From: an uncultured Actinomycetes bacterium | GTDB lineage: Bacteria > Actinomycetota > Thermoleophilia > UBA2241 | Assembly (NCBI GenBank): GCA_963725665.1 | Contig: CAVRZA010000002.1 | Coordinates: forward strand, 320,001-384,000 | Reading direction: 5' to 3' | DNA length: 64,000 nt | In this document: one piece after another, positions 887 through 62,098 of the stretch | Numbering within the stretch: the stretch's first letter is position 1 | How the letters are laid out: every line of letters begins with the position of its first letter | Program-made: the position numbers and the translations under genes | Notes under the pieces: model-generated | What the model saw: the letters and a program-made list of their open reading frames with translations, nothing else | Database searches by the model: none | Told to the model about the DNA's origin: nothing

Positions 887-1014
887 CTCACTCCTCGTCG
901 GGTCCTCGATCGTCCTCGGTCTGGCTCGGCGGCGGCGGTCCTTGGTCCGGCTCGCGGCGCCGGTTCGTGCTCCGCGGGCCCCGCACCGGACCGCCGGGCG
1001 GGGCCGTTACCGCC

Positions 1015-37877: not shown

Positions 37878-38008
37878 GCGTTGCCTGGGAAGGCGGGCTG
37901 GCCGATAGCGAACGCCGACCGAGGATCGCCGCGCTGCGTGGAGGCGCCGGCGGCGAGGTGTAGGGACCTCGCCGCCGGCGCCTAACCAGCTTCTGACTTC
38001 GGGGAGGG

Positions 38009-38464
38009 CTACTCCTTGGCGGGAACCACCAGGACCGGCACGTGAGCCGTGTGCAGCAGCTCCTGGGTGGTGGAGCCGAGCACCGTGGTCGTCTCGGAGG
38101 CGCCGGCGCCTCGCGCGCCGACCACGATCATGTCGGCGTCGACGTCGCGTGCCACCGTGACCACGATCGAGGCCGGGTTCCCCCGGCTGCAGGCCGTGGC
38201 CGCTTCGATCCCGGCGGCCCGCGCCGTCTTGGCCGCCTCCTCAAGATCGTCGTTGATCTTCGTCTCCATCTCGTCCCAGAGCTTCTCCATTTCCATGGCC
38301 GACTTCCAGAGCGGCTCGTAGCCGAGCCAGCCCGGCCGCCGGTCGTGGCCACAGGTGATGACGATCTTGGTACCTTGCCTGCCTTCGGCAAGATCGATGG
38401 TCGCCTTCAGGGCGTCCTTCGCAGCCGTCGAGCCGTCGTAGCCCACGACGAAGGTGCTCGCCAT
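38009..38464 (-). CDS. Universal stress protein
   Basis: VVGYDGS, IVVGARG, LGST, VPVLVV. Confidence 0.92.
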   Translation of the reverse strand: MASTFVVGYDGSTAAKDALKATIDLAEGRQGTKIVITCGHDRRPGWLGYEPLWKSAMEMEKLWDEMETKINDDLEEAAKTARAAGIEAATACSRGNPASIVVTVARDVDADMIVVGARGAGASETTTVLGSTTQELLHTAHVPVLVVPAKE

Positions 38465-38613
38465 AGCTCGTCCCCCTCTCGCTTCGTTTGGCACCGACCG
38501 ACGGGCAGTCGGCCGAAGGAAGCCGGCCGGGGCCGCCTTCCTGAGTCAATGCGGGTGCGCGGCGCGACCGTGAGTCGCGCCGCGCACCCCTAGGAACAGG
38601 CCGCCAGCGGCCG

Positions 38614-40237
38614 TCAGCCCGTCTCGCGCACGCCGGCGAAGAACTCGGCGTGGTCGTCGACGGGAGCCGCGGCGATGGCGTCGAGCCTCTCTTGCGGTGG
38701 CGGCGCCGTGACTAGGGTCACGACGATGCACGTAACGACACCGGCGATGACACCCCAGACCGCGTAGCCGAGCGCGCTCGCCGCCAGCTGGGACGGCCAG
38801 TAGTCGAACTCGAGCACGTACTTCTCGACGAAGTAGCCGATGAAGGCCGTGAGGCCACCTACCAGCGAACCGGCGAAGGCACCGCGCAGGTTGGCGCGCT
38901 TCCAGAACATCGCGAACACCGGCACCGCCACGCCGGCCGATAGGACGCCGCTCGACAGATAGTAGGCGTCCCACAATCCCTTCGGCAGGAGGTCGATGCC
39001 GAACGCGAAGAGGATCATCAGGAAGCACACGATGAGCGACCAGGCACGGCTCCAGGCCATGATCTTGCTGTCGCTCCAACCGCGCTTGCGGTACACGAGC
39101 GGCTGCAGGACGTCGTAGCTGATGTTCATGGCGCAGACGTTGGTGAAGGTCGCCATCGTCGACATCGACAGCGCGGCCAGCATGGGGAACAGGATGATAG
39201 AGGGCCCAGATCGGGAACTCCTGGCTCAAGAAGATGGTCATGATCTGGTAGGCGTCGCCGCCGAGCACAGCATCGTAGGCCGTCTTCGGCGGGAAGACAA
39301 CGAGAGCCAAGAGACCGAAGATGCTCGGCAGGATGAGCACCCAGATGTAGTTGTAGATGAGGTTGGCCCAGATGCCCTTGCGCGCCGCCTTCGTGTCCTT
39401 GGCCGACTGCGCCTTGAGCCACCAGTCCTCCTCGATCACCCACCCGGGAAGCAGGGCGACGATGGAGATGAAGATATACGGCACCCCCAGCGGGATAAGG
39501 CTCCAGGCGCTATAGCCCTCTCCGCTACCGGGCGGCACGACCCTTTTCAAATAGTCGTACATGCTCACCCCGGAGGGCAGGTCGCGGTAGGCGACGACGA
39601 CCATGGCGACGGTGACCACGGTGACGAAGATGATCGCCATGAAGAACTGCAGCACGTTGGAGTTGATCACCGAGTGGAAGCCGCCCATCCACATGTAGAT
39701 GGCGATCGGGATGCTGAACGCGAGGTACATCACCCACGGTTGCACGCCGAACTCGGGGGCGACGATGTGGGCGATAGTCCACACCTCGGCCGCCGACCAG
39801 ATGATGAAGGTGAAGATGTTGAACGGGCTCACCAGCACGCGCAGCGGGAGTCCGAAGCGGTTCTGCAGCATCTGCGGCTGCGAGATCGCCTTGATCGATC
39901 GCACCTTGGGCACCAACGCGACCATGCAGAACAGGAGGATGGACCAGGGTATCACCATCACCCAGATCCCCCCGAGGCCGTACATGTAGGTGCTATAGAT
40001 CGCCCAGGTGATGAAGCCGATCAGCAGCCACCCGGCGGCGATGCTGCAGCCCACGAGCAGCGCGCTTGTCGACCGGCTGGCCACCCAGTAATCCTTCTGC
40101 TGATCGTCCGCAGACCTCTTTCGGAGCATGCGGTAGATGGACTGGCCTATCCACAGGATGACCACGAAGTAGGCGATCATCGCCACCCAGAACCAGATGG
40201 CATGGCTCCCAACGGTGTCGGTTGCGGCTGCAACCAT
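38614..40237 (-). CDS. Sodium:solute symporter family transporter, frameshifted near 39199
   Basis: Many TM helices, DYWVASR, WMGGFHSV, AALSMST, FWKRAN; frame switch at ...WAL/IILFPM. Confidence 0.8.
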
Positions 40238-40432
40238 AGCTCCCCCTTTCGTAGCGATCACAGAAACGACCGTCCGCGATTCGGCCTGCGCCCTGCCGTG
40301 CGGCCGGGTGCACCAGGCCGCTCTCGCGACTCAAATGCGTCACGTTCTGCCTGCGCCCCCTTTCCTTCCGCTGCGAACGGTTTCCTGGCCACCGACGCGG
40401 GCGCGCCCCCTTGCGCGCCTGCGTCCGGATTA

Positions 40433-40472
40433 GCCTGGCGGCCCGGCTCGCCGGCGAGCCGGGCCGCCAGGC
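40433..40472. repeat. Perfect 40-bp palindrome (possible terminator or mRNA stabiliser)
   Basis: GCCTGGCGGCCCGGCTCGCC|GGCGAGCCGGGCCGCCAGGC. Confidence 0.85.
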
Positions 40473-40515
40473 GCTCACCGTCGAGCTCGCCGGCTGCACA
40501 GTGACCTCGACGGGT

Positions 40516-41154
40516 TCAGACCTTGACCCCGGCGAGCTCCTTGCACCGCTCGACACCGATCGACGCGTTCGGTCCGTAGCCGTCGGCACCGATCTCCTTG
40601 GCGTAGGCCTCGCTCACCGGGGCGCCACCGACGATGACCTTCACCTGGTCACGCAGGCCGGCTTCCTTGAGCGCGTTGATCGTCTCCGGCATCTTGGGGA
40701 TCGTCGTGGTGAGCAGGCCGCTCATGCCGAGGACGTCGGGCTTGTGCTCCTTCACGGCGGCCACGAAGTCGGCCGGTTTGATCCCCTTGCCCAGGTTGAT
40801 GACGTTGAAGCCGCCGCCCGCCAAGAGCATCGCCACGAGGTTCTTGCCGATGTCGTGCATGTCGCCCTCGACGGTGCCGATGACGACCGTGCCGATCGTC
40901 GCGCTCTCGCCGGCCGCCATGTGCGGCTTCACGAGGTCGAGGCAGGCCTGCATCGTCTCCGCGCTCAGAAGCACCTCGGGGATGAAGAACTCGCCGCTCT
41001 TCATGCGCTGGCCCACGACTTCCATGCCGGGCAACAGCGACTGGTCGAGGATGTCGCGCGCCGAGGCGCCGTCTGCCAGCATCTTCTCCGTCTGGGCCGT
41101 CGCGTGATCATCGCCGGCGATGATCATCTCTTTCAGCGTCTCGAAGTCTGCCAT
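40516..41154 (-). CDS. mttC: Methyltransferase cognate corrinoid protein (MttC-like)
   Basis: B12-binding motif GDMHDIGKNLV...MSGL...VGGA; FIPEVLLSA. Confidence 0.88.
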   Translation of the reverse strand: MADFETLKEMIIAGDDHATAQTEKMLADGASARDILDQSLLPGMEVVGQRMKSGEFFIPEVLLSAETMQACLDLVKPHMAAGESATIGTVVIGTVEGDMHDIGKNLVAMLLAGGGFNVINLGKGIKPADFVAAVKEHKPDVLGMSGLLTTTIPKMPETINALKEAGLRDQVKVIVGGAPVSEAYAKEIGADGYGPNASIGVERCKELAGVKV

Positions 41155-41198
41155 ATGCTCCCTTTCCTTCACGTCGCGTTTCCTGTCGAAGCCCGGGC

Positions 41199-42677
41199 TC
41201 AGGAGATGGCGACGCCCGCCTTCTTCTCGACATCCCTCACGATGGCGCGGATCTCGTCCTGCACGTCGCTCGGGAGCGGCTCGACCTCGTAGGACTCGAT
41301 GACCTCCTTGGCCTTCTCGTTGCAGCGCTGGTAGTAGTCCTTGCTGCCGTCCATCTCCCACTCCTCGCGCACGCGCCGGTCGATGAGCCCTGCTCTCGAC
41401 TGGTGGGCGCGCATGTTGTCGCGCGTGCTCTTGCGGGAGAGGAAGTCCTTCTCGGAGCCCACGGCCACGATCTCGTCGACCATGAGCGTGGCATCGTTGG
41501 TGGGGATGCCGCGAAGGATGTACTTGCACATGCGCGCGGTCTCGTTGTCCATGACGAGCACCGCGTAGTCGATGGTGACGCCCGACTCGATCATCCCTGC
41601 ACCGTAGATCTGGTTGGCTCCTCCCAACGCAGGTACTAGTCCGGTGATGGTCTTCTCGTGTGCGGTCTGCGCATCACCTAGTTTGGAATCCGCCTACAAG
41701 CCGGCCACGTAGCTGGGCAGCAGGTAGTAGCGCGCCAGGGCCGGGACGGCGGCGCTGATGAGTGCCAGCTCCGGTGTGCCCACCGAGGCCGTGGCCCGCT
41801 GCAGGTCGAAGGCCGTCGTCGATGAGCCGTAGATCACCGGGCAGCCCTTCTCGGCCAGCTGGCAGAGAACGACGCCGCCCAAGACCTCGGCGTTGTGCGT
41901 GACCAGTGTGCCCGCCAGGGTGACCGGTGCCGAGCCGCCGGACATGGCCATCGAGAGCGGCATCGCTGGCATGTGAGCGCGCGCGGCCGAGATCATGCAG
42001 CCGGTGAACTCGCCCATCAGCTTCAAGGGGCTGACCGGGCAGCTCAGGAACTCGAGCATGGGACGCTCGGCCAGCTTGTCGCGGCCGCCGACGACGGCCG
42101 CCGCGGCGTCGATCGTTAACTCGGCGCCGTGATGGTTGAGCGCCAGGCTACAGATCGGCTTGGTGGTGTTGAGCAACGTGGCCTCGATGAGGTGCGCCTC
42201 GGCGACCTCCGGAGCGACGTCGTTGGCCGTCACGGCGACGGTGTAGACCTCGATGTCGTCGAGGGCGTCGACCAGCTTGGCGAGGTCACCGACGTCTTTC
42301 TTGGTCGTCTGGCGCAGCTCGCCTGTGTAGGGGTCGACCGCCTTGACGCCCTCGGCGAAGTTGGTGTAGCTGACGCGCTTGCCCTCGAGGACGACGTCCT
42401 TGTCGGGGGTGCGCCCGCAGAGGACGACCTTGGAGGGCGCCCAGGAAACGGTCTCCTCCAGGACGTGCTGCGGGATCCTGACCTTGCGCTCGGCCCGGTC
42501 CACCTTGCAGCCGCCGTCGGCGAAGAGGTCGAGAGCCTCGTCGTCCTCGACCCAGAGGCCCGTCTTCTCGAGCACTTCGACGGTCGCCCAGTGGATGTCG
42601 TCGAGCTCATCTTGGGTGAAGATCTCGACGCCGAGGCCTCCGTTGCGGAGACCGCCGGCATGCTGGGGTCGGATCAT
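41199..42677 (-). CDS. mttB: Trimethylamine:corrinoid methyltransferase MttB, 492 aa with in-frame UAG at codon 328 (predicted pyrrolysine)
   Basis: ORF-track pieces 42677-41694 and 41627-41199 share one frame; read-through gives [47 protein letters not shown]. Confidence 0.9.
41622..41688 (-). other. Candidate PYLIS-like stem-loop just 3' of the in-frame UAG
   Basis: mRNA pairings UUCCAA/UUGGGA, ACUAG/CUAGU, GGUGAUG/CAUCACC. Confidence 0.5.
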
Positions 42678-43288
42678 ACTGCCTCCTCCTTCGCTTGACG
42701 TTGCGTCTGTGCCACGAGACGGGGCGTCTCTTTGCTCCTGCTCCCGTTCGAGGCACCATTCGGCGGCGCCGAATGAGTCGACCTGTGCATGAACCTCAGC
42801 GCGGCGCGGGTGAGTGCGCTTCCTAGGCGGAGAGGTCGGGGATCCGAAGGGCGGCGCGCGCCACCGAGACCGTGGCCACGGCGTCGCGCCGTCACAAGTG
42901 GGGGAATGGGCGGGCGCGATGCGAGGCGGCCGCGTCGGCGGCCAGGCCTACGGCGGCGGGTGGCCGGCGCCAGCGGCCAGGCCCACGGCGGTGAGGTGGG
43001 CGCTCTGGGCGGGGCAGCGGCCGAGTGTCGGGCTCTGAGGCTCGGACAGCCGCCGGCGCTCGCTCCGCATGCTACGAGAGTCCGCAGACAGGCTGCCTCG
43101 TCCGACCTGGCACCCCGAACGCATGGCTCCCCCCTAATCGTGAGCCAGATTGCCACACCGCTCGACCCCTGCCGCAGGGCAACGGTGGAATCCAACACGA
43201 ACAGTATAGAACAGCGCTGCGCGTGACAATCGTTTGTGCAGGATGTCGTCGAGGTGTGCCCCTTCACTCACAACGGGAGCATGGAGAA

Positions 43289-43330
43289 GCGCGGCGGGCG
43301 GCGCCCTCGAAGGGGCGCCGCCCGCCGCGC
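43289..43330 (-). terminator. GC-rich hairpin terminator after the por/bfu operon
   Basis: GCGCGGCGGGCGGCGCCC-loop-GGGCGCCGCCCGCCGCGC. Confidence 0.7.
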
Positions 43331-43359
43331 GCGTTCGGCTGGTAGCCGGTCTAGTCTAG

Positions 43360-46300
43360 TCAGTCGCAGGTCATCGCCGCGTGCCCGGCGCGCCACTCGG
43401 CGTCGCTGGGCTCGCCGCACTTCTCGAGCAGCTCGTCCCACTCCCTGTCGACCCACTCCTCGAGCGCGCTCAGCACGCCCTCGTTGCCGGCCTTGAAGAG
43501 GTGCCCGAAGCGTCCCTGCTTCTTGAGCCATGGCGTCACCGGCTCCTTCTCGTGTGGCCGGTAGCTCAGGTGGTAGACGCCGTTCTCGACCTCGAACAGC
43601 GGCCAGTAGCAGGTGTTGACGGCCTCGCGAGCGAGCTCGATCGACGAGGCCCCCTCGCTGCGCCAGCCGCGGGGGCAGGGCGAGATGATGTTGAGGAAGG
43701 CCGGGCCGGGGGTGGCGAGGGCCTTGGCCGCCTTGCGCACCAGGTCGCGCGGGTCGTGCGGCGAGGCCTGGGCGACGTAGGGGATGCCGTGGGCGATCAT
43801 GATTCCGGTCAGGTCCTTGCGCTGCTGCATCTTGCCCGTCTGCTCAGCCCCGACGGGGCTCGTCGTCGTCCAGGCGCCGAGCGGCGTGGCGCCGGAGCGT
43901 TGGAAGCCGGTGTTCATGTAGGCGCCGTTGTCGTAGCAGACGTAGACGAGGTCGTGGCCACGCTCCATCGCCCCGGAGAGGGACTGCAGCCCGATGTCGT
44001 AAGTGCCGCCGTCGCCGCCGAAGGCGATGAACTTGACGTTCTCCGCGATCTTGCCCTGCTTCTTCAGGGAGCGGTAGGCGGTCTCGACGCCCGACAGCGT
44101 GGCGGCCACGTTCTCGAACGCGGTGTGGATGTAGCTGTTCGTCCATGAGGTGTAGGGGTAGATCGTCGTCGACACCTCGAGGCAGCCGGTGGCCGCCGCG
44201 GTCACGACCGGCTCGCTCGTGCCCATCAGCACCTGACGGGCCACGATCGGCGCGCCGCAGCCGGCGCACAGCCGGTGGCCGCCGGCCAGCTTCGAGCCCT
44301 GGGCGACCAGCGTGTGCCACTGCTCGCGGCCTTGCTCGAAGACGTTCGTCTCCTTGAGCGCGTCGACAGGGCAGACGTCGACGCACTGGTGGCAGAAGGT
44401 GCAGCGCGCCTCGTCGACCGCGTACGACTGCAGGACGCGGTGGTTGAAGCTGAGTGCCCCCGTCGGACAGGCCGTGACGCAGCGGCCGCAGGTGATGCAG
44501 TCGGCCAGTTGCAGCGACTCGCCGTAGGGCGTGTCGACCTTGATGCGGAAGCCGCGGCCGCTGAAGTCGTAGCAGGCCGGGCCGGCCACGTCGGCGCACA
44601 CGCGCACGCAGCGCCCGCAGGCGATGCACTTGTTCATGTCGCGCTCGATGAACGGGTGTCGCGCGTCGGACTCCTCGCGGCGCACGAGGCCGGGCGCCAA
44701 GGTCTTGGTCGCGGCGATCACGAGCTCGTTGTCGGTGATGTCGTACTCGATGCCCAGCCGCTGCAGATCGCAGCTGCCGTTGGCGTCGCAGACGCACTGC
44801 AGGCAGCGCGCCGCCTCGGCGCGCGCGGCCGCCGGAGTGAGTCCCCGCTCGACCTCGGTGAACGAATCGAGGCGCTTGGCCGCCGTCAGCTTGCTCTGCC
44901 GGGCGCGCGGCGCGGTGTCGGCGCCGATGCCCATCCTCAGCCAGACCGGGGCGTGCTCGGCCAGTCGCTGGCCGAGCTCACCGAGCTGGGCGGCGTCGCG
45001 TACCTGCTCGAGGTAGGGAAGGGCGGCGTAGAGCGCCAGCTTGCCCTCGAGCTCTTCGAGGTCGCTGCCCGAGAGCCAAGCGTCCATCGCCAGCGCCGCT
45101 CGCTTGCCGGCGGCGACGCCGTGGATGGCCGCCTTGGCGCCCGTCACGGCGTCGCCGCCGGCGAAGACGCCCTCTTGCGAGGTGCGCCCCGTGAAGGGGT
45201 TCGCCTCGAGCGTGCTCCACGATGACAGCGAGAGCTCGCCCTCGATCGTCTCGGCGTCGGGCGTGTAGCCCTGGGCCCAGAGCACGGTGCGCGCCGGCAC
45301 GTCGCGCGCCGCGGCCTTGGTGCGCTTCACGCCGTCGGCGTCGAGCTCGACGACCTGGACCGCGGCCGGCTTGCCGCCGCGGTCGAGCTTGATGCGCCGC
45401 GGCTCGACGGCGAACTCGAAGCGCACACCCTCGTCGCGGGCGGCGGCGACGTCGGCCGCGCCGGCCTCGACGCGGCGTTCCTCGTGCCGGCAGAGGACCG
45501 TCACCTCAGCGACGCCGAGACGGCGCGCGGAGCGGGCGGCGTCGAGCGCGGCGGAGCCGTCGCCGACGACGCAGACCGCGCCGCCGAGGCGCGGCTTCTT
45601 GCCGGCGCGGACCTCGGCGAGGAAGCCGAGGGCGTCGCGGGCCAACTTGCCGCCGGGGATCGTGACGGCCTGGCTCTTCCAGGCGCCGACGCCGACGAAG
45701 GCGGCGTCGTAGCCGCCGGAGAGCAGGCCGGCGAGCGAGATGTCGTCGCCGAGCCGTACGTCGCCGACGAAACGCGCGCCGGCCTTCCACAGGGGAGCCA
45801 GCTCGTTCTCGACGACCCCGGTCGGCAGACGGAACTCGGGGATGCCGTAGCGCAGCATGCCGCCCGGTTCGTCCTTGTCGTCGTAGACGGTCACGGCGTG
45901 GCCGGCCTGAAGCAGGTAGTAGGCGGCCGTCAGGCCGGCCACGCCGGCGCCGATGACGGCGACCCGCTTGCCGGTCGAGGGTGCGCACTCGATGTCGTCG
46001 GGGGCGCGGTCGCCGGCAGCCCGGTGCAAGGCGCAGATGGCGATGGGCTCTTCGACCTCACCGCGTCGGCAGACCGGTTCGCACGGCCGCGTGCAGATGC
46101 GCCCGAGGATGCCGGGGAAGGGCAGGTCGCGGCGCACGATGGCGGCCGCGGCGCCAAAGTCGCCCTCCTCGACCTTCGCGATGAAGGCGGGGATGTCGAT
46201 GTGTGCGGGGCAGCTCACCGAGCAGGGGGCCTCGCAGTAGGAGTTGTGGTCCGAGAGGTACATGCGCAGGTAGTTCGCCCGCCGCTCGCGTACGCGCTCT

Positions 46301-46551
46301 GTGTCGGTGTGCACGACGAGGTCGTCCTGCACCCAGGTCGTGCAGGCGGCCTGCAACTTGCCCCAGCCCTCGACCTCGATCAGGCAGAGGCGGCAGGCCG
46401 CCCAGGGCGCCATGCCTTCCTCGGCGCAGAGGGCCGGGATGTCGATACCGGCGCGCTGTGCCACCGCGAGCACGCTCTCGCCCGGCTGCGCCGATACTCG
46501 CCGCCCGTCGATGGTCAGCTTCACGGTTGCGGCCTTGGTATGGGTGCTCAT
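43360..46551 (-). CDS. Fusion protein (~1063 aa): NuoG/HydA-like [2Fe-2S] N-terminus + GltD-like FAD/NAD(P) domain + [4Fe-4S] ferredoxins + PorB TPP-binding subunit
   Basis: IPALC..ACRLC..AAC; CEAPC, GAGVAG, FAGGD; CIACGRCVRVC, CITCGRC, CTFCHQC; HRLCAGCG, ATGCLEV, GGDGG, YDNGAYMNTG, SPCPRGW; TGATG coupling with the upstream gene. Confidence 0.85.
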   Translation of the reverse strand: MSTHTKAATVKLTIDGRRVSAQPGESVLAVAQRAGIDIPALCAEEGMAPWAACRLCLIEVEGWGKLQAACTTWVQDDLVVHTDTERVRERRANYLRMYLSDHNSYCEAPCSVSCPAHIDIPAFIAKVEEGDFGAAAAIVRRDLPFPGILGRICTRPCEPVCRRGEVEEPIAICALHRAAGDRAPDDIECAPSTGKRVAVIGAGVAGLTAAYYLLQAGHAVTVYDDKDEPGGMLRYGIPEFRLPTGVVENELAPLWKAGARFVGDVRLGDDISLAGLLSGGYDAAFVGVGAWKSQAVTIPGGKLARDALGFLAEVRAGKKPRLGGAVCVVGDGSAALDAARSARRLGVAEVTVLCRHEERRVEAGAADVAAARDEGVRFEFAVEPRRIKLDRGGKPAAVQVVELDADGVKRTKAAARDVPARTVLWAQGYTPDAETIEGELSLSSWSTLEANPFTGRTSQEGVFAGGDAVTGAKAAIHGVAAGKRAALAMDAWLSGSDLEELEGKLALYAALPYLEQVRDAAQLGELGQRLAEHAPVWLRMGIGADTAPRARQSKLTAAKRLDSFTEVERGLTPAAARAEAARCLQCVCDANGSCDLQRLGIEYDITDNELVIAATKTLAPGLVRREESDARHPFIERDMNKCIACGRCVRVCADVAGPACYDFSGRGFRIKVDTPYGESLQLADCITCGRCVTACPTGALSFNHRVLQSYAVDEARCTFCHQCVDVCPVDALKETNVFEQGREQWHTLVAQGSKLAGGHRLCAGCGAPIVARQVLMGTSEPVVTAAATGCLEVSTTIYPYTSWTNSYIHTAFENVAATLSGVETAYRSLKKQGKIAENVKFIAFGGDGGTYDIGLQSLSGAMERGHDLVYVCYDNGAYMNTGFQRSGATPLGAWTTTSPVGAEQTGKMQQRKDLTGIMIAHGIPYVAQASPHDPRDLVRKAAKALATPGPAFLNIISPCPRGWRSEGASSIELAREAVNTCYWPLFEVENGVYHLSYRPHEKEPVTPWLKKQGRFGHLFKAGNEGVLSALEEWVDREWDELLEKCGEPSDAEWRAGHAAMTCD

Positions 46552-48482
46552 CAGTTCCTCCCTCCGGCCACGGCGGTCAAGACGCCCGGTGACTCGACGT
46601 CGATGGCATCGAAGTTGCAGACCTGACGGCAGGTATCGCACTTGATGCAGAGCCTCTGGCTGATCTTCTGGACCTCTTTGCGCTCGCCGCTGACGGCCTT
46701 GGTGGGGCAGGCGACGTTGCACGCGAAGCAGCCGGTGCACTTCTCCTTGTTGACGGTGTAGCGGATGAGCGGCCGGCAGACCTTCGCCGGACAGCGCTTG
46801 TCGAGCACGTGGGCCACGTACTCGTCGCGGAAGTAGCGGATGGTCGTGAGGACGGGGTTGGGGGCGCTGCCGCCGAGCTGGCAGAGCGAGCCTTCGATGA
46901 CGTCGTCGGAGAGACGCTCGAGCAGATCGATGTCGTCGAGCGTGCCTTCTCCGGCAGTGATGCGCTCGAGGATCTCGAGCATGCGCTGCGTGCCCACGCG
47001 GCACGGTACGCACTTGCCGCAGGACTCCTCCGCCGTGAACTTGAGGAAGAACTTGGCGAAGTCGACCATGCAGGTGGAGTCATCGACCACCACCATGCCG
47101 CCGGAGCCCATCATCGAGCCCAGCGCGACGAGACTCTCGAAGTCGATCGGCGAGTCGAGGTACTCGGCCGGCACGCAGCCGCCCGAGGGACCGCCGAGCT
47201 GCACGGCCTTGAACTCGCGTCCGGGCTGCATGCCGCCGCCGATGTCGAAGATCACGTGACGCAGCGTGGCGCCCATGGGCACCTCGACGAGGCCGCTGTT
47301 GCGCACCTTGCCGGTCAGGGAGAAGATCTTCGTCCCCTTGGACGTCGCCGTCCCCATGCTCGCCAGCGCGTCGGCACCGTGGGCGATGATCCAGGGCACG
47401 GTAGCGTAGCTCTCGACGTTGTTGAGGTTCGTCGGCTGGCCGTAGAGGCCGTGGGCCACGGTGCGGATGTGCTTGCCGCGCGGCATGCCGCGACGGCCCT
47501 CGATGGAGGCCGTCAGGGCCGTCGACTCGCCGCAGACGAAGGCGCCGGCGCCCTGGTTGATGCGGATGTCGAAGTCGAACCCCGAACCGAGGATGTCCTC
47601 GCCCAGCAGGCCGCGCTCGCGCGCGGTCGCCAGCGCGAGACGGAGGCGTTGCACGGCGAGCGGGTACTCGTGGCGCACGTAGACGAAACCCTCGACGGGC
47701 ACGGTCCCCGATGCGATGGCGAAGGCGGCGATGATCATGCCCTCGATCACCGAGTGGGGGTTGTCCTCGAGGATGGCGCGGTCCATGAAGGCGCCCGGGT
47801 CGCCCTCGTCGCCGTTGCAGATGACGTACTTGCGCTCGCCGGGGTTAGCACGGCAGAAGCGCCACTTCTTGCCGGTCGGGAAGCCGGCGCCACCGCGACC
47901 CCGCAGGCCGCTCTTCTCGACTTCGTCGATGACGGCTTCGGGGTCGCCGCCGGCGAGCACCTTCGCCAGCGAGCTGTAACCGTTGCGAGCGAGGTAGTCG
48001 TCGATGGAGGTGGGGTCGATGAAACCGTTCGCCTCGCGCGCGACGCGCACCTGCGAGGCGTAGAAGGGGACGTCCTTCTCCTCGACGATCGTCTCGTCAG
48101 TCTCGGGGTGCCGGTACAGCAGGCGCTCGACGACCTCGTCGCCGACGACGCTCGTCTCGATGATGGAGGCGACGTCGCGTGCCTTGAGGCGCGGGTAGAA
48201 CACGCCCCGCGGATGGACGACGACGATGGGGCCTTCCTGGCAGAGACCGTGACAGCCGGTCTCGACCACCGCGACGCGGTCGCTGAGGCCACGCCGGGCA
48301 AGCTCCTCGTCGATGGCGGCGCGCAGGGCGGCGCGGCCTGAGGCATTGCAGGTCGTGCCGGCGCAGACGCGGATCTTGACCTCGTCTTCGCCCGGAGTCG
48401 CGTTCTCGGGATGGAACGCCCGCTTCAGGGCTCTTTCGATGGCCGTGGCCCGCCGGGCCGTTGATCGTGCCGTCGCAGCCAC
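46551..48482 (-). CDS. NuoF/HydB (BfuB)-like FMN/NAD(H)-binding subunit
   Basis: CAGTTC..GCHGLC, GLRGRGGAGFPTG, GDEGDPGAFMDR, GAFVCGE, ESCGKCVPC, H-x5-CPAKVC, C-terminal 2x[4Fe-4S]. Confidence 0.92.
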   Translation of the reverse strand: MAATARSTARRATAIERALKRAFHPENATPGEDEVKIRVCAGTTCNASGRAALRAAIDEELARRGLSDRVAVVETGCHGLCQEGPIVVVHPRGVFYPRLKARDVASIIETSVVGDEVVERLLYRHPETDETIVEEKDVPFYASQVRVAREANGFIDPTSIDDYLARNGYSSLAKVLAGGDPEAVIDEVEKSGLRGRGGAGFPTGKKWRFCRANPGERKYVICNGDEGDPGAFMDRAILEDNPHSVIEGMIIAAFAIASGTVPVEGFVYVRHEYPLAVQRLRLALATARERGLLGEDILGSGFDFDIRINQGAGAFVCGESTALTASIEGRRGMPRGKHIRTVAHGLYGQPTNLNNVESYATVPWIIAHGADALASMGTATSKGTKIFSLTGKVRNSGLVEVPMGATLRHVIFDIGGGMQPGREFKAVQLGGPSGGCVPAEYLDSPIDFESLVALGSMMGSGGMVVVDDSTCMVDFAKFFLKFTAEESCGKCVPCRVGTQRMLEILERITAGEGTLDDIDLLERLSDDVIEGSLCQLGGSAPNPVLTTIRYFRDEYVAHVLDKRCPAKVCRPLIRYTVNKEKCTGCFACNVACPTKAVSGERKEVQKISQRLCIKCDTCRQVCNFDAIDVESPGVLTAVAGGRN

Positions 48483-48483
48483 G

Positions 48484-49233
48484 TCAGGCCTCCTTCTTGC
48501 GACGAAGCTTGCGGACTAGCCGTCGCGCCTCGTTCGGGGTCATGCGACCGAAGGTCTCGTCCTCGCCAAGGCGGACGGCCGGGGCGAGGGCGCAGGCGCC
48601 GACGCAGTTGACCGTCTGCAGCGTGAAGAGCTCGTCGGGGCTCGTAGCGCCGATGGCGATGTCGAGCTCCTGTGCGAATGCCTCGGCCACGAGGGGAGCG
48701 CCGGCCACGTGGCAGGCCGTCCCCATGCATACACTGATCACATGCTTGCCTACGGGCTCCAGCCGGAACTGGTTGTAGAACGTCGCCACGCCGTAGACCT
48801 TCGAGAAGGGCATGCGTATCTCGTCAGCGATCTCCTCGAGCGCCCTGCGCGGGAGCCAGCCGAAGGAGTCCTGCGTCGCATGCAGGGCCTCGATCAACCC
48901 TGACCCGTCGCGCAACCGTTGTGCGACGTCGTCGAACTTGGCCATGTCGATCTCGGGCTGTGCCTCGGCGCGCGCCGCCTTCTCAGCAGCGGTGTCCCAG
49001 GGGAGGTCGGGGTGCTCGGGGCAATAGTCGATCTCGATGCAGTCGACGGGGCAGACGCGCTCGCACAGCGTGCAGGCGTAGCAGCGGTAGCCGCCGCGGC
49101 CGTCGCGAACCAGGTCGAAGAGCCCCCGCCCGCGCGCCTTGCCGAGCAGTTCGCGCTTCTCGAAGTCGATGCCCTGCAGCACCTCGTAGAGGGTCGGTGC
49201 CGTCCGGAGCTTGCCGTTGCCGTTGCCCGCCAT
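48484..49233 (-). CDS. NuoE/HydC (BfuC)-like [2Fe-2S] subunit with an extra N-terminal [4Fe-4S] motif
   Basis: CYACTLCERVCP; VATFYNQF, CMGTACH, CVGAC. Confidence 0.85.
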   Translation of the reverse strand: MAGNGNGKLRTAPTLYEVLQGIDFEKRELLGKARGRGLFDLVRDGRGGYRCYACTLCERVCPVDCIEIDYCPEHPDLPWDTAAEKAARAEAQPEIDMAKFDDVAQRLRDGSGLIEALHATQDSFGWLPRRALEEIADEIRMPFSKVYGVATFYNQFRLEPVGKHVISVCMGTACHVAGAPLVAEAFAQELDIAIGATSPDELFTLQTVNCVGACALAPAVRLGEDETFGRMTPNEARRLVRKLRRKKEA

Positions 49234-50441
49234 CACTGCTCCTCGTCCTTGCGCAGGTTCAGGTAGCGCCGCTTCACCGGGATCTCCTCGCCGGCCGCTG
49301 CGCTCTGGAGCACGGCGTAGGCCTCCTCGATGTTGGCGGGGAAGATGTCACGCCCGCCGAGGCCGTAGATGAAGGGGTAGATCTCGGGTCTCGTGGCGCA
49401 GTCGTACAGCGCCGACCGGACCTCGAGGAAGATGGGGCCGCCCTGGGCGCCGAACGAGTCGGCGCGATCGAGGACCCCGACCACCTTCACGCCCTGCAGG
49501 GCGTCGACGTACTCCTGCACGGGGAAGGGCCGCAGGGTGCGCACTTTCAGCACGCCCGCCTTGACGCCGGCGTCGCGCAGCTGATCGACGACCGTGCGCG
49601 TCGTCCCGGCCGTTGAGCCCACGACCACGATCGCGATCTCGGCGTCGTCGAGCCTGTAGGTCGAGAAGTGGTGATAGCGACGGCCGGTCAGCGCGGCGTA
49701 CTCCTCGGCGACCTCGTCGATGACGCGCAAGGCGCGCTCCATGGCGCGGTTCTGCGAGACCTTGTGCTCGAAGAACCAGCCGTGCAGGCCATCGAACGGG
49801 CCCACCGTGACGGGGTGCTTCGTGTCAAGCATCGGGTTGACGGCCACGTAGGGGCCGATGAACTCCTGCACGGCCTCGTCGGAGAGCATATTGAGCGGAC
49901 CGATGGCGCCGCTCACGATGAAGCCGTCCATCATCGTCATGACCGGCAGCCGCACCTCCATGTGCTCGGCGATGCGCACGGCCATCAGGTGGTTGTCGTA
50001 GGCCTCCTGGTGGTCCTCGCCGTAGAGCTGGATCCAGCCCGTATCGCGGGCGCCCATGGAGTCGGAGTGGTCGCAGTGGATGTTGATCGGGCCCGAGAGG
50101 GCGCGATTGACGTTGGCCATGACGACGGGCAGGCGGTAGGACGACGCGAGGTGCAGGAGCTCCCACATGAGAGCGAGGCCCTGCGAGCTCGTCGCGGTCA
50201 TCGTGCGCGCGCCGCCCGCGGCGGAGCCGATGACCGCGCTCATCGCCGAGTGCTCGCTCTCGACCGTGATGAACTCCGTGTCGACCTTACCGTCGGCGAC
50301 GAACTGGGCGAAGATCTGCACGATCTCAGTCGCCGGGGTGATGGGATAGGCGGCCACGACGTCGGGGTCGATCTGGCGCATGGCGTTGGCCACGGCCTCA
50401 TTGCCGGTGACCGCGATGGTGTTCACGTCGAGGGTCGCCAC
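49233..50441 (-). CDS. porA: Pyruvate/2-oxoacid:ferredoxin oxidoreductase alpha subunit
   Basis: GNEAVA, AYPITP, ESEHSA, TSSQGL, INIHCDHSD, YGLGGRD. Confidence 0.92.
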   Translation of the reverse strand: MATLDVNTIAVTGNEAVANAMRQIDPDVVAAYPITPATEIVQIFAQFVADGKVDTEFITVESEHSAMSAVIGSAAGGARTMTATSSQGLALMWELLHLASSYRLPVVMANVNRALSGPINIHCDHSDSMGARDTGWIQLYGEDHQEAYDNHLMAVRIAEHMEVRLPVMTMMDGFIVSGAIGPLNMLSDEAVQEFIGPYVAVNPMLDTKHPVTVGPFDGLHGWFFEHKVSQNRAMERALRVIDEVAEEYAALTGRRYHHFSTYRLDDAEIAIVVVGSTAGTTRTVVDQLRDAGVKAGVLKVRTLRPFPVQEYVDALQGVKVVGVLDRADSFGAQGGPIFLEVRSALYDCATRPEIYPFIYGLGGRDIFPANIEEAYAVLQSAAAGEEIPVKRRYLNLRKDEEQ

Positions 50442-50443
50442 GG

Positions 50444-50863
50444 TCACTCCTTCTCTTCGAGCAGCATGGTGATGGCCTTCGGGGGGCACTCGTGGGCGCA
50501 GATGCCGCATCCCTTGCAGTGCGCCAGGTCGACGGCGACCGCCTTGCCACCCTCGACGATGATGGCGGCGTCGGGGCAGTAGAAGTAGCAGAGCATGCAG
50601 CCGATGCACTTCTCGACGTCGATCTCGGGCACGAAGGTGCGCCAGCCGCCGGTCTCGTTGTAGATCGAGTTGCCCGCCTCGGGGATCACGGCCCCGAGCT
50701 CGTGACGGTCCGGGCCCCACTCCTGGATGTCGGAGATGTCCCAAGCCGGCTTGGGAGGGGCGCCTTTCGTCCCGTCGCCCTTGGCCCCGCCGCTCGCCGC
50801 GCGTGGGCCCTTGGGCGCCTTCGCCGCAGCGGGACGGGCGGCCGGTTTCTTGCTCGGAGTCAT
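50444..50863 (-). CDS. porD: Pyruvate/2-oxoacid:ferredoxin oxidoreductase delta subunit
   Basis: TGGWRT, CIGCMLCYFYCPD, CKGCGICAHECP. Confidence 0.92.
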   Translation of the reverse strand: MTPSKKPAARPAAAKAPKGPRAASGGAKGDGTKGAPPKPAWDISDIQEWGPDRHELGAVIPEAGNSIYNETGGWRTFVPEIDVEKCIGCMLCYFYCPDAAIIVEGGKAVAVDLAHCKGCGICAHECPPKAITMLLEEKE

Positions 50864-54952: not shown

Positions 54953-55222
54953 GGCCGCGCACCCGCCGTCGAGTACCATCCTCCGAGCGTCCCTGCCGGT
55001 GGCAAGCTCCGGCCGGGCGCCCCCGCGGCACATGGAAGTGCCTGCTTACCGCTGCTTCCTTCCGGACCTGACGGGGTTCGCAGGGTCCCATTGCGCGGGA
55101 CCCGGCCATCAACGCCGCACGCCGGCCGACGGCCTCGCGGGACGGCCCCTCGGGCGGGGATTCAGCCCCGCTGTAGCGGATTGCGGGTACAGGGCACCGC
55201 TAGCTCCCCGCCTAGCGCGACC
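54953..55222 (-). ncRNA. ffs: Large (Alu-domain-containing) bacterial SRP RNA
   Basis: 5' GCTAGGCGGGGAGCTAGCGGTGCCCTGTACCCGCAATCCGCT Alu motif and helix 8 TCAGGTCCGGAAGGAAGCAGC; promoter TTGACC-N17-TAGACT at 55258-55230; upstream of dnaX. Confidence 0.93.
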
Positions 55223-62023: not shown

Positions 62024-62098
62024 TGGTGGGCAATGTTGGATTTGAACCAACGACCTCCTGCGTGTGAAGCAGGCGCTCTCCCCCTGAGCTAATTGCCC
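62024..62098 (-). tRNA. tRNA-Val(CAC) with encoded CCA
   Basis: GGGCAAT...AGCTCAGGGGGAGAGC CCTGC-TTCACAC-GCAGG ...GGTTCAAATCC ATTGCCCACCA. Confidence 0.96.

What the first reader, a model, noticed from the sequence alone, without database searches (positions are those of the whole stretch)
41199..42677. Pyrrolysine-encoding trimethylamine methyltransferase: genetic-code expansion in a probable anaerobic actinobacterium
Seen: one in-frame TAG (41694-41696) splits an otherwise intact 492-codon mttB. The segments on both sides are in the same frame, and a corrinoid protein gene follows immediately. Established: methanogen MttB carries Pyl in the motif YVAG-x-O-x-D-[AS]-K...HEKT...GAN-x-IYGAGM, and the read-through here gives [40 protein letters not shown]. 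Bacterial Pyl use is known mainly from Firmicutes and Deltaproteobacteria. Inference: this organism decodes UAG as Pyl. Standard pipelines would call this two fragments or a pseudogene. No pylTSBCD genes are in this window.
Basis: partly seen in the sequence, partly recalled or inferred. Interest (0 to 1): 0.92.

Follow-up and report, generated by a model that had tools for sequence, protein, structure and literature searches.

The report
Pyrrolysine-coding mttB gene in Thermoleophilia
This is a real trimethylamine methyltransferase gene whose in-frame TAG codes for the rare 22nd amino acid pyrrolysine, in an uncultured soil or peat actinobacterium that has all the pyrrolysine genes; the call is right, but the trait has already been reported for this group.

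Summary
A 492-codon mttB lies on the minus strand (41199-42677) with one in-frame TAG (41694-41696, codon 328). That codon aligns with the non-standard residue 334 of Methanosarcina barkeri MttB. A corrinoid protein gene follows 44 nt downstream.

The genome, on another contig, holds pylT (anticodon CUA), pylSc, pylSn and pylBCD. It has 14 methylamine methyltransferase genes with TAG at the Pyl site (5 mttB, 8 mtbB, 1 mtmB). All 9 of 9 close orthologues keep the TAG.

The organism belongs to a Thermoleophilia family in which PylSc occurs in 51 of 55 and Pyl-type mttB in 54 of 55 sampled genomes.

This is not new. A Thermoleophilia PylSc is listed in a 2022 supplement, and peatland Actinobacteriota expressing Pyl-type mttB and mtbB were published in 2023. 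This scan also reported the same thing in at least 12 other genomes.

What I add:
- TAG still ends about 37% of genes, RF1 is kept, and there is no sign of backup stops.
- A conserved 8-bp hairpin lies 65-87 nt after the UAG. It uses rare codons and shows compensatory changes, and it is not part of Rfam's PYLIS_3 structure.

The parts
41199..42677 (-). mttB, Pyl-type trimethylamine:corrinoid methyltransferase, 492 codons plus TGA stop
   Evidence: Translation. NCBIfam TIGR02369 equivalog 657.1 bits against a cut-off of 525. Pfam MTTB 297.5 bits. PDB 7xcm/7xcl MttB E 5.8e-112.
41694..41696 (-). In-frame TAG (UAG), codon 328, predicted pyrrolysine codon
   Evidence: Aligns with X334 of chain 7xcl_A and with K in 7xcm_A. 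TAG kept in 9 of 9 orthologues and in all 150 listed class matches. No difference at this site in bridging contigs of runs X1 and X2.
41597..41696 (-). Match to Rfam RF02510 PYLIS_3 ('pyrrolysine insertion sequence mttB'), starting at the UAG
   Evidence: 71.4 bits against a gathering score of 38, full length 1-100. The score comes mainly from sequence: the model has 8 pairs and 3 of them are non-standard here.
41610..41632 (-). Conserved 8-bp hairpin with one bulge and a 6-nt loop, nt 65-87 counted from the U of UAG, over codons 349-356 (PALGGANQ)
   Evidence: 97.8% of 224 cells paired in 28 distinct sequences. 3 of 8 pairs have compensatory changes. 0 of 500 shuffles reach this. Slid controls give 11-50%. 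Uses rare codons TTG and CCA/CCT. Free energy -10.5 kcal/mol.
40516..41154 (-). Cognate corrinoid (B12-binding) protein gene, MttC-like, 212 aa
   Evidence: Pfam B12-binding 100 bits and B12-binding_2 62.3 bits. NCBIfam pyl_corrinoid TIGR02370 184.6 bits, below its cut-off of 215.3; best hits are MtgC/MtbC-type corrinoid proteins.
38546..40261 (-). Putative permease, weak sodium:solute symporter family match, same strand downstream of the corrinoid gene; possibly a methylamine transporter (inference)
   Evidence: Pfam SSF 39.1 bits. NCBIfam sss superfamily 44.3 bits, far below its cut-off of 184. My crude gene caller did not pick this frame cleanly.

Best explanation
The gene encodes a pyrrolysine-dependent trimethylamine:corrinoid methyltransferase (MttB). 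During translation the UAG at codon 328 is read by a dedicated amber-suppressor tRNA(Pyl) (anticodon CUA). That tRNA is charged by a split pyrrolysyl-tRNA synthetase (PylSc + PylSn) with pyrrolysine made from lysine by PylB, PylC and PylD. Pyl-tRNA competes with release factor 1, which the genome keeps. The full-length enzyme moves a methyl group from trimethylamine to the Co(I) corrinoid protein encoded just downstream. From there a pterin-binding methyltransferase probably passes the methyl group to tetrahydrofolate, for oxidation or for acetyl-CoA synthesis. Shown here: the gene anatomy, the Pyl-site alignment, the complete pyl gene set, conservation of the TAG, and the presence of RF1. Inferred: the actual Pyl insertion, the substrate, the downstream methyl route, and how the cell tolerates suppression when about a third of its genes end in TAG. 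The most likely answer to the last point is conditional expression of the pyl genes, as published for Acetohalobium arabaticum. A contribution from the conserved hairpin downstream of the UAG is possible but untested.
For: One TAG in an otherwise open 492-codon frame. TIGR02369 equivalog 657.1 bits > 525. Codon 328 aligns with the non-standard residue X334 of M. barkeri MttB chain 7xcl_A, E 3.6e-111. Same genome: PylSc 314.6 bits (cut-off 178), PylSn 119.9 (51), PylB 448.3 (348), PylC 338.7 (248), PylD 211.6 (150). ARAGORN tRNA-Pyl(cta) lies 54 nt downstream of pylD, drawn with a 6-bp anticodon stem and a 3-nt variable region. The window's contig C2 and the pyl contig C6 have tetranucleotide r = 0.9993, and both pyl loci are compositionally typical. 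In relatives G008 and G100, PylSc and a TAG-bearing mttB lie on one contig. TAG sits at the Pyl site in 14 genes of this genome: 5 mttB, 8 mtbB, 1 mtmB. 9 of 9 orthologues keep the TAG. All 150 listed TIGR02369 matches in the class have exactly one TAG. PylSc and Pyl-type mttB co-occur by family: f1 51/55 and 54/55, f4 9/55 and 7/55, the other ten families 0/190 and 0/190. RF1 scores 489.9 bits > 423. Downstream route: adjacent corrinoid protein, RamA/RACo-type activators, 4 pterin-binding methyltransferase hits, one beside the mtbB/mtmB cluster on C3 and one beside ACS, and acetyl-CoA synthase. Published precedent: peat Actinobacteriota MAGs express Pyl-encoding mttB and mtbB (PMC10805028, passages). 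pyl genes of A. arabaticum are expressed only with TMA (PMC11467909, passage).
Against: No protein-level evidence: Pyl insertion, enzyme activity and substrate are not shown for this or any Thermoleophilia gene. TAG ends about 37% of predicted genes (1207 of 3288) and shows no enrichment of nearby backup stops (next in-frame stop within 5 codons: 8.0% after TAG, 9.3% after TGA). Constitutive suppression would therefore extend many proteins, and the model needs an unshown regulatory or kinetic solution. Rfam's general tRNA model did not match pylT at E <= 1; the identification rests on ARAGORN and on its position next to pylD. The corrinoid protein scores below the NCBIfam pyl_corrinoid cut-off (184.6 < 215.3). 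The genome is a MAG with 5% estimated contamination. An earlier scan note and one broken mtbB copy suggest long-read assembly errors elsewhere in it. The runs laid were related strains (best word share 0.38), not demonstrably the source sample.
Confidence: 0.92

Rival explanations
1. The TAG is a nonsense mutation or an assembly error, and the gene is a pseudogene or two fragments.
For: The assembly has at least one broken methyltransferase gene: mtbB at C2:503975-505331 has an extra break. An earlier scan note attributes frameshifts in the same genome to long-read errors. An integrase elsewhere in the genome carries two in-frame TAGs that its homologues lack, so TAG pseudogenes do occur here.
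Against: TAG sits at exactly the Pyl position. It is kept in 9 of 9 orthologues at 73-82% identity and in all 150 listed class matches. Both halves keep strong coding signal and family scores across the TAG. Illumina contigs of two other studies show no difference at the site. The full pyl machinery is present.
Confidence: 0.02
2. UAG has been reassigned genome-wide to pyrrolysine, as in the archaeal 'all TAG = Pyl' code, so TAG is not a stop in this organism.
For: A full pyl system and many Pyl genes. The archaeal precedent is cited in PMC13695967 (passages).
Against: RF1 is present and intact at 489.9 bits, above its cut-off. TAG terminates 1207 of 3288 called genes. Of 29 non-methyltransferase TAG read-through candidates, 0 had a Pfam domain spanning the TAG; they are adjacent genes such as nuoB/nuoC and argC/argJ. 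Extension lengths after TAG do not differ from those after TGA.
Confidence: 0.01
3. The enzyme is Pyl-dependent, but its substrate is not trimethylamine. With five Pyl-type mttB paralogues in the genome, some may act on other tertiary or methylated amines.
For: Five Pyl-type paralogues with differing residues around the Pyl site, for example O-ADSK against O-GDSK/GDAK/GDTK. There are about 20 further non-Pyl MttB-family genes, a family whose non-Pyl members are known for other substrates (PMC10805028, passage). PDB hits include a glycine betaine methyltransferase at E 3.2e-61.
Against: It scores above the curated equivalog cut-off for [trimethylamine--corrinoid protein] Co-methyltransferase. 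It is far closer to M. barkeri MttB (378 bits) than to the glycine betaine enzyme (210.7 bits).
Confidence: 0.1

Closest known systems
Methanosarcina barkeri MttB (PDB 7XCL/7XCM/7XCN), Pyl-dependent trimethylamine:corrinoid methyltransferase
   Same: Full-length alignment (query 13-485 against chain 14-490), 378 bits, E 5.8e-112. The TAG codon aligns with the non-standard residue at chain position 334. The flanking motifs YVAG-x-O-x-D-[AS]-K, HEKT and GAN-x-IYGAGM are conserved. A cognate corrinoid protein gene is adjacent.
   Different: The host is a bacterium (Thermoleophilia), not a methanogen. The methyl group presumably goes to tetrahydrofolate rather than coenzyme M (inference). The mRNA carries a hairpin at nt 65-87 after the UAG whose pairs are mostly not formed in the Rfam PYLIS_3 consensus sequence (my reading).
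Pyl-encoding mttB and mtbB of peatland Actinobacteriota MAGs (Ellenbogen et al. 2023, PMC10805028) and the 'Thermoleophilia_bacterium' PylSc in the supplement of Guo et al. 2022 (PMC9630628)
   Same: Same phylum and, for the 2022 entry, the same class. Same trait: amber-interrupted mttB/mtbB, split PylSn + PylSc. The runs holding near-identical DNA are labelled peat, soil, wetland and freshwater sediment metagenomes. By eye, the PylSc here shares long identical stretches with the two listed actinobacterial sequences.
   Different: In the passages I read, those papers give a count or a sentence. They do not give a genome-level account: number of Pyl genes, pyl gene layout, TAG stop usage, RF1, family-wide distribution or RNA structure. 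I read passages and supplement hits only, not the whole texts.
Bacterial Pyl systems of Desulfitobacterium hafniense, Acetohalobium arabaticum and the Olavius delta-1 symbiont
   Same: Split PylSn + PylSc. UAG remains a frequent stop. No SECIS-like mandatory element is known (PMC1976440, passages). pyl expression is conditional on TMA in A. arabaticum (PMC11467909, passage).
   Different: 14 Pyl genes here against 8 in the delta-1 symbiont, which was called the bacterial record in 2007. The pyl genes are split into pylB-pylC-pylD-pylT and, 47 kb away, pylSc / corrinoid protein / radical-SAM / pylSn. The single pylTScBCDSn cassette of D. hafniense that I compare with is recalled, not checked here.
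Rfam RF02510 PYLIS_3 (mttB) and RF02509 PYLIS_2 (mtbB)
   Same: The 100 nt from the UAG score 71.4 bits (gathering 38) for PYLIS_3. An mtbB of the same genome scores 89.3 bits (gathering 36) for PYLIS_2. The 3' hairpin of PYLIS_2 (model positions 73-92) is the one I found covarying in Thermoleophilia mtbB.
   Different: For mttB the Rfam consensus structure is barely met (3 of its 8 pairs are non-standard in this window), and the paper behind it says the mttB region shows no common structure (PMC3639795, passage). The Thermoleophilia mttB hairpin at nt 65-87 lies in a stretch that PYLIS_3 treats as unpaired.
Non-Pyl MttB-superfamily methyltransferases (for example glycine betaine methyltransferase, PDB 9YCE/2QNE)
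   Same: Same fold family (PF06253). The genome holds about 20 such genes without a Pyl codon, two of them in or at the edge of this window.
   Different: They have a sense codon at the Pyl position, much lower similarity (210.7 bits against 378), and they lack the hairpin (2-6 of 8 pairs).

Membership tests
Pyl-type MttB (NCBIfam TIGR02369, [trimethylamine--corrinoid protein] Co-methyltransferase) | Whole-protein score above the curated equivalog cut-off | tested here: met
   657.1 bits against a cut-off of 525, profile 2-469 of 469.
Pyl-type MttB | In-frame UAG at the position of Pyl334 of M. barkeri MttB | tested here: met
   Codon 328 aligns with X at chain position 334 of 7xcl_A.
Pyl-type MttB | Cognate corrinoid protein encoded alongside | tested here: met
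   A B12-binding plus B12-binding_2 protein starts 44 nt downstream. It is below the NCBIfam pyl_corrinoid cut-off (184.6 < 215.3).
Pyl-type MttB | TMA:corrinoid methyl transfer activity, and Pyl present in the protein | not testable with these tools
   Needs an enzyme assay and mass spectrometry.
Pyrrolysine-decoding organism (pyl trait) | tRNA(Pyl) with CUA anticodon and its unusual architecture | tested here: met
   ARAGORN tRNA-Pyl(cta) at C6:343702-343774, drawn with a 6-bp anticodon stem and a 3-nt variable region. Rfam's general tRNA model did not match at E <= 1.
Pyrrolysine-decoding organism (pyl trait) | Pyrrolysyl-tRNA synthetase (PylSc, with PylSn in bacteria) | tested here: met
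   PylSc 314.6 bits > 178.15. PylSn 119.9 bits > 51.15. Separate genes 1.8 kb apart.
Pyrrolysine-decoding organism (pyl trait) | Pyl biosynthesis genes pylB, pylC and pylD | tested here: met
   448.3 > 348.2, 338.7 > 248.3 and 211.6 > 150.05 bits. Contiguous on C6:343829-347028.
Genome-wide UAG-to-Pyl reassignment (archaeal 'all TAG = Pyl' code) | UAG no longer used as a stop; no factor terminating at UAG | tested here: not met
   RF1 present. TAG ends 1207 of 3288 called genes. 0 of 29 read-through candidates have a domain spanning the TAG.
Rfam RF02510 PYLIS_3 | Score at or above the gathering threshold | tested here: met
   71.4 bits against 38, model 1-100 of 100.
Rfam RF02510 PYLIS_3 | Consensus secondary structure formed and supported by covariation | tested here: not met
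   3 of the model's 8 pairs are non-standard in the window. RNAalifold on 10 orthologues gave a covariation term of -0.13 kcal/mol, with 1 of 33 pairs compensatory. A different, local hairpin is supported instead.

The most novel reading that the evidence does not exclude
Thermoleophilia that use pyrrolysine end over a third of their genes in UAG. That is above the 1-27% reported for Pyl-encoding archaea and, in my small sample, above their Pyl-free class relatives. They also keep RF1 and show no backup stops. If suppression is not simply switched on and off, they need a way to tell Pyl-UAG from stop-UAG. Both mttB and the unrelated mtbB carry a hairpin under selection at synonymous sites, at about the same distance from the UAG (mttB nt 65-87; mtbB nt 74-91, extending to 65-100). 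This hairpin could be a bacterial cis-element that favours Pyl insertion or stabilises these mRNAs. That would make the long-open question of context-dependent UAG decoding in bacteria testable.
Probability: 0.12. Interest if true: 0.75.

Novelty: new member of a known kind. Interest (0 to 1): 0.4.

Why it matters
Standard pipelines split this gene in two or call it a pseudogene, so the methylamine metabolism of a widespread soil, peat and sediment lineage is under-annotated. The data here show that Pyl use is a family-wide trait in one Thermoleophilia family, with up to 14 Pyl genes in one genome. That makes these bacteria plausible competitors of methylotrophic methanogens for tri-, di- and monomethylamine in wetlands, which bears on methane budgets. 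They also offer an extreme natural case of UAG ambiguity: about 37% of stops are TAG and RF1 is present. Together with a small conserved RNA hairpin, this could be used to test whether bacteria use any context signal for Pyl insertion. None of this changes the basic picture of pyrrolysine biology.

Tried and rejected
1. Plus-strand translation of the given coordinates gives no gene; the gene is on the minus strand.

2. ARAGORN on the pylS locus found no tRNA; pylT is next to pylD instead. With a relaxed threshold ARAGORN also called 'tRNA-Pyl' at C6:445138 and C11:189132. I did not follow these and do not count them.

3. Rfam found nothing at pylT at E <= 1.

4. A genome-wide screen for further Pyl genes by coding potential after the stop is confounded by in-frame neighbouring genes (162 of 1207 TAG, 164 of 1897 TGA, 27 of 184 TAA). 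After filtering on Shine-Dalgarno motif plus start codon, 32, 11 and 2 remained. The filter also removed 11 of the 14 known Pyl genes, so it is insensitive. The 29 survivors that were not methyltransferases all proved to be adjacent genes or plain extensions (0 of 29 with a domain across the TAG). Further Pyl proteins are therefore not excluded.

5. An integrase with two internal TAGs looked like a Pyl candidate. Its homologues up to 82% identity have no internal stops, so I read it as a decaying copy.

6. A long-range PYLIS-like fold of the 123 nt after the UAG has no covariation support; the single-sequence z-score is -2.06.

7. The promoter and terminator scan of 38000-43500 found 0 of each.

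8. Non-Pyl MttB paralogues as a control for the hairpin (2-6 of 8 pairs) are not a clean control, because their protein motif differs.

9. Prat et al. 2012 (PMC3529041) is not held. I cite its result only through a review passage.

10. Read laying: no contig spans the whole gene, and parts have no cover in some runs. The RNA-library contig of run X15 that bridges the TAG (93% alike) does not show transcription of this gene.

11. dsrA was not found in this genome or in 3 relatives (0 of 4).

12. The +4 base is G after all 14 Pyl-UAGs. That follows from the conserved next residue (Gly, Ala or Val) in three gene families, so I do not read it as a signal. The background is 36.5% G.
Full report
**1. 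The observation**

The coordinates are right, but the gene is on the minus strand. Window 41199-42677 (-) reads as 492 codons plus TGA, with one in-frame TAG at 41694-41696 (codon 328). The plus strand gives nothing.

Under table 11 the ORF list shows the two expected fragments, 41694-42677 (327 aa) and 41199-41627 (142 aa), in the same frame. The ATG at 42675-42677 follows an AGGAGGAGG motif (read). A 212-aa corrinoid protein gene (40516-41154, -) starts 44 nt after the stop. It is followed on the same strand by a weak sodium:solute-symporter-type ORF (38546-40261).

**2. What the gene is**

- The read-through protein scores 657.1 bits on NCBIfam TIGR02369, the equivalog model for the Pyl-type trimethylamine methyltransferase (cut-off 525).
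- It scores 297.5 bits on Pfam MTTB.
- Against solved structures the best matches are M. barkeri MttB (7xcm_A 378 bits, 7xcl_A 375 bits). Codon 328 aligns with position 334 of the chain, which is X (non-standard) in 7xcl and K in 7xcm.
- The glycine betaine enzyme of the same superfamily scores only 210.7 bits.

**3. Is the TAG real?**

The search for related loci confirmed 9 relatives out of 46 pattern hits. All 9 (73-82% identity) have TAG at the same codon and a TGA at the end where the contig reaches it.

No public run holds the whole stretch (best share of sampled words 0.38; labels are soil, peat, freshwater sediment and wetland). I laid contigs of four runs from four studies. Record 4 of X1 (41641-41879, 7 differences) and record 19 of X2 (41515-41741, 3 differences) bridge the TAG. 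All of their differences appear in the table and none lies at 41694-41696. Contigs of X5 and of the RNA library X15 also bridge it, but their differences are not fully listed, so I do not count them.

**4. The machinery**

The window is G000:C2:320001-384000 in a 3.73-Mb, 12-contig genome (97.5% complete, 5.0% contamination). On contig C6 I found:

| Gene | Position on C6 | Score (bits) |
|---|---|---|
| pylSc | match 296347-297081, + | 314.6 |
| pylSn | match 298938-299198, - | 119.9 |
| pylB | gene 345937-347028 | 448.3 |
| pylC | gene 344697-345914 | 338.7 |
| pylD | gene 343829-344629 | 211.6 |

All are above their curated cut-offs, and the same models rang above cut-off only in Methanosarcina among the 14 control genomes.

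ARAGORN finds one tRNA-Pyl(cta) at default stringency, at C6:343702-343774 (-), 54 nt downstream of pylD. Its drawing shows a 6-bp anticodon stem and three bases between the anticodon and T stems.

So the layout is pylB-pylC-pylD-pylT and, 47 kb away, pylSc, a corrinoid protein, a radical-SAM protein and pylSn.

C2 and C6 have the same composition (tetranucleotide r = 0.9993; pyl loci 0.9949 and 0.9925 against a genome median of 0.993 for 20-kb pieces). In relatives, PylSc and a TAG-bearing mttB share a contig (G008 C1; G100 C33).

**5. The set of Pyl proteins**

Searching the genome with Pfam models gave the following.

- MTTB: 31 matches, 6 of them with one TAG.
- Dimeth_Pyl (mtbB): 9 matches representing 8 genes, all with one TAG.
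- MtmB: 6 matches, 1 with a TAG.

Looking at each one:
- The TAG is at the Pyl site in 5 mttB, 8 mtbB and 1 mtmB, which makes 14 genes.
- The sixth MTTB hit (C1:36714) has its TAG upstream of the real start and is not a Pyl gene.
- One mtbB (C2:503975-505331) has an additional break.
- About 20 MttB-family genes have no Pyl codon. Two of these touch the window, at window 1-946 (running off the window's start) and 58183-59568.

**6. TAG as a stop**

No gene caller is on hand, so I wrote a crude one (codon log-odds trained on long high-GC3 ORFs, greedy non-overlap). It calls 3288 genes covering 82% of the genome, with stops TGA 1897 (57.7%), TAG 1207 (36.7%) and TAA 184 (5.6%). At a stricter score the TAG share is 38.0%.

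RF1 is present (489.9 bits, cut-off 423.25, no internal stop).

Genes ending in TAG are no more likely than others to have a second in-frame stop nearby (within 5 codons: 8.0% TAG, 9.3% TGA, 9.8% TAA). Their +4 base does not differ much either.

The same caller on 400-kb samples gives these TAG shares:

| Genome | PylS | TAG-ending genes | GC |
|---|---|---|---|
| G007 | negative | 83 of 360 (23.1%) | 76% |
| G015 | negative | 96 of 376 (25.5%) | 72% |
| G008 | positive | 123 of 331 (37.2%) | 66% |
| G100 | positive | 121 of 356 (34.0%) | 65% |
| Own genome (400-kb sample) | positive | 149 of 370 (40.3%) | 69% |

So TAG is not depleted in the Pyl users. That is the reverse of what is reported for archaea (median 5.0% in Pyl-positive against 22.0% in Pyl-negative, range 1-27%; PMC12626013, passages). 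The comparison is small, kin are not independent, and GC differs, so I claim only 'no depletion'.

That bacterial Pyl users keep UAG as a frequent stop was already noted for D. hafniense (PMC1976440, passage).

**7. Other Pyl genes?**

See Tried and rejected. The screen found no non-methyltransferase gene with a domain across a TAG (0 of 29), but it is insensitive.

**8. Who is it, and how widespread is the trait?**

Of the 9 closest orthologues, 8 are titled Thermoleophilia MAGs and one 'Coriobacteriaceae'. I did not see the name of the genome itself.

In an even sample of 301 genomes of its class:

| Family | PylSc | Pyl-type mttB (E <= 1e-120) |
|---|---|---|
| f1 (own family, without G000) | 51 of 55 | 54 of 55 |
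| f4 | 9 of 55 | 7 of 55 |
| The other ten families | 0 of 190 | 0 of 190 |

Every one of the 150 listed mttB matches has exactly one TAG; 117 more matches are not listed.

In a sample of 151 genomes, mtbB gives f1 23 of 25, f4 2 of 25 and 0 of 100 in the other nine families sampled. All 150 listed matches have one TAG.

Exceptions: four f1 genomes lack a PylSc match. Two of them (G110, G281; 93% and 83% complete) still have TAG-bearing mttB. G044 has PylSc and mtbB but no mttB match.

**9. Physiology**

The genome has:
- acetyl-CoA synthase (213.8 bits)
- two RamA/RACo-type corrinoid activators
- four pterin-binding methyltransferase hits, one near the mtbB/mtmB cluster on C3 and one near ACS
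- PFOR-type and NADH-linked oxidoreductases beside the operon
- two aldehyde:ferredoxin oxidoreductases
- a heme-copper oxidase subunit I (536 bits)

It has no dsrA. 'Anaerobic' is therefore plausible for the methylamine pathway, but a strictly anaerobic lifestyle is not shown.

**10. RNA structure after the UAG**

Rfam PYLIS_3 matches the 100 nt from the UAG (71.4 bits). But the model has only 8 pairs, 3 are non-standard here, and its source paper says the mttB region shows no common structure. A long-range fold is not supported.

That alignment, and two earlier scan notes, pointed to a local hairpin. I tested it on 30 sequences (28 distinct): the window, the 9 orthologues and 20 further Pyl-type mttB genes from families f1 and f4.

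- The 8-pair stem (window 41610-41632, nt 65-87 from the U of UAG) forms standard pairs in 97.8% of 224 cells.
- 3 pairs have changes on both sides (6 cells).
- 0 of 500 shuffles reach the observed pairing, double changes or covariation score.
- Sliding the partner by 1-3 columns gives 11-50% pairing.

The stem overlies the conserved PALGGAN(Q/L) motif, so protein constraint explains much of the invariance. However:
- It uses Leu-TTG (5.3% of Leu codons in this genome) and Pro-CCA/CCT (4.6% and 6.3%).
- The Pro third position follows its partner: U with A, and A or G with U.
- Where Leu is CTG, the Asn-AAC partner can become Ser-AGC, giving C-G (paralogue C1:21736; one CG pair).

The five Pyl-type paralogues of this genome form 8, 8, 8, 7 and 5 of 8 pairs. 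Free energy is -10.5 kcal/mol.

In mtbB, which is unrelated in sequence, 27 distinct sequences support a stem-loop at nt 65-100 (93.1% of 378 cells paired). Pair 75-90 shows CG 14, UA 5, GC 4, UG 3 and AU 1 with no mismatch, and pair 78-87 shows four types with no mismatch. All four positions are synonymous third positions. The structure was derived from this genome's paralogues, two of which are in the alignment, which favours it against the slid controls. Its inner hairpin is already part of Rfam PYLIS_2 (model positions 73-92), so it is known.

The mttB hairpin lies at almost the same offset but is not in the PYLIS_3 structure.

Function is unknown. At 62 nt past the UAG the hairpin is too far to touch a ribosome that is decoding the UAG, which argues against a SECIS-like mechanism (inference).

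**11. Comparison with what is known, and verdict**

Pyl-type MttB, the pyl genes, split bacterial PylS, frequent UAG stops in Pyl bacteria and conditional pyl expression are all established.

For this phylum:
- Guo et al. 2022 counted two Actinobacteria among 81 bacterial PylRS genomes (passage). Their supplement names 'Thermoleophilia_bacterium' and 'Actinobacteria_bacterium_ADurb.BinA094'.
- Ellenbogen et al. 2023 report Actinobacteriota MAGs expressing Pyl-encoding mttB and mtbB in a thawing permafrost mire (passages).

Full-text searches for pyrrolysine with Thermoleophilia (1 paper, irrelevant), for Thermoleophilia with mttB (2 papers) and for Thermoleophilia with 'trimethylamine methyltransferase' (1 paper, one of the same two) found nothing linking the class to Pyl. 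Subscription journals are not covered.

This scan has already reported the same kind of gene in at least 12 other genomes.

The finding is correct and well supported, but it is a new member of a known kind. The parts that go beyond what I could find in print are the family-wide distribution, the 14-gene Pyl set, the undepleted 37% TAG stop usage with RF1 present, the split pyl layout, and the codon-level evidence for the mttB hairpin.

Noticed in passing
G000:C1:513252-514433 (-), locus L131:2252-3433: A full-length tyrosine integrase (394 codons) with two internal in-frame TAGs (codons 65 and 242) and no other internal stop. It belongs to a multi-copy family in this bacterial family (matches in 39 of 57 genomes). 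The closest copies (up to 82% identity) have no internal stops, so it is probably a decaying copy rather than a Pyl protein.
   Followed up: yes
G000:C11:277489-278214 (-): A RamA/RACo-type corrinoid activator match (279.7 bits) with one in-frame TGA, close to MttB-family genes on C11. The genome has a tRNA-Sec (tca) at C11:550041-550138. This could be a selenocysteine codon or an assembly error.
   Followed up: no
G000:C2:503975-505331 (+): One of the 8 mtbB genes has, besides its Pyl TAG, a further break near codon 390: the Pfam match splits at profile position 402/403 into two frames. This fits an earlier scan note about single-base errors in this long-read assembly, but it could be a real pseudogene.
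   Followed up: partly
G100:C33:431877-455251 and G010:C12:40796-53829 (family f4): In the second Pyl-positive family, pylSc lies within a few kb of a TAG-bearing mttB and two TAG-bearing mtbB genes, forming a compact island. In the window's own family the pyl genes and the methyltransferase genes are scattered over several contigs. This may bear on how the trait was acquired.
   Followed up: no
window 43360-50447 (-): Directly upstream of mttB lies a cluster of large iron-sulfur flavoprotein genes: a 1217-aa ORF with 2Fe-2S, pyridine-nucleotide-disulphide oxidoreductase, 4Fe-4S and TPP-binding domains, NuoF-like and NuoE-like proteins, and a PFOR alpha-type subunit. It is probably a ferredoxin/NAD(P)H-linked 2-oxoacid oxidoreductase complex.
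   Followed up: partly
window 54955-55220 (-): Bacterial large SRP RNA (191.2 bits, full length). The window also holds tRNA-Val at 62024-62098 (-) and tRNA-Arg at 8696-8783 (+).
   Followed up: no
window 1-946 and 58183-59568 (-): Two further MttB-superfamily genes without a Pyl codon (241 and 186 bits on Pfam MTTB), part of about 20 such paralogues in the genome. This suggests wide use of quaternary or other methylated amines.
   Followed up: no
G000:C4:585010-586350 (+): A heme-copper oxidase subunit I (536 bits) in a genome that also has acetyl-CoA synthase, PFOR and aldehyde:ferredoxin oxidoreductases. The organism may be microaerotolerant or facultative rather than strictly anaerobic.
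   Followed up: partly
G000:C6 296212-297084, 298890-299234 and 343829-344629: pylSc, pylSn and pylD themselves end in TAG (3 of the 5 pyl protein genes). With a 37% background this is not significant, but read-through of the Pyl machinery's own stops could give feedback.
   Followed up: no
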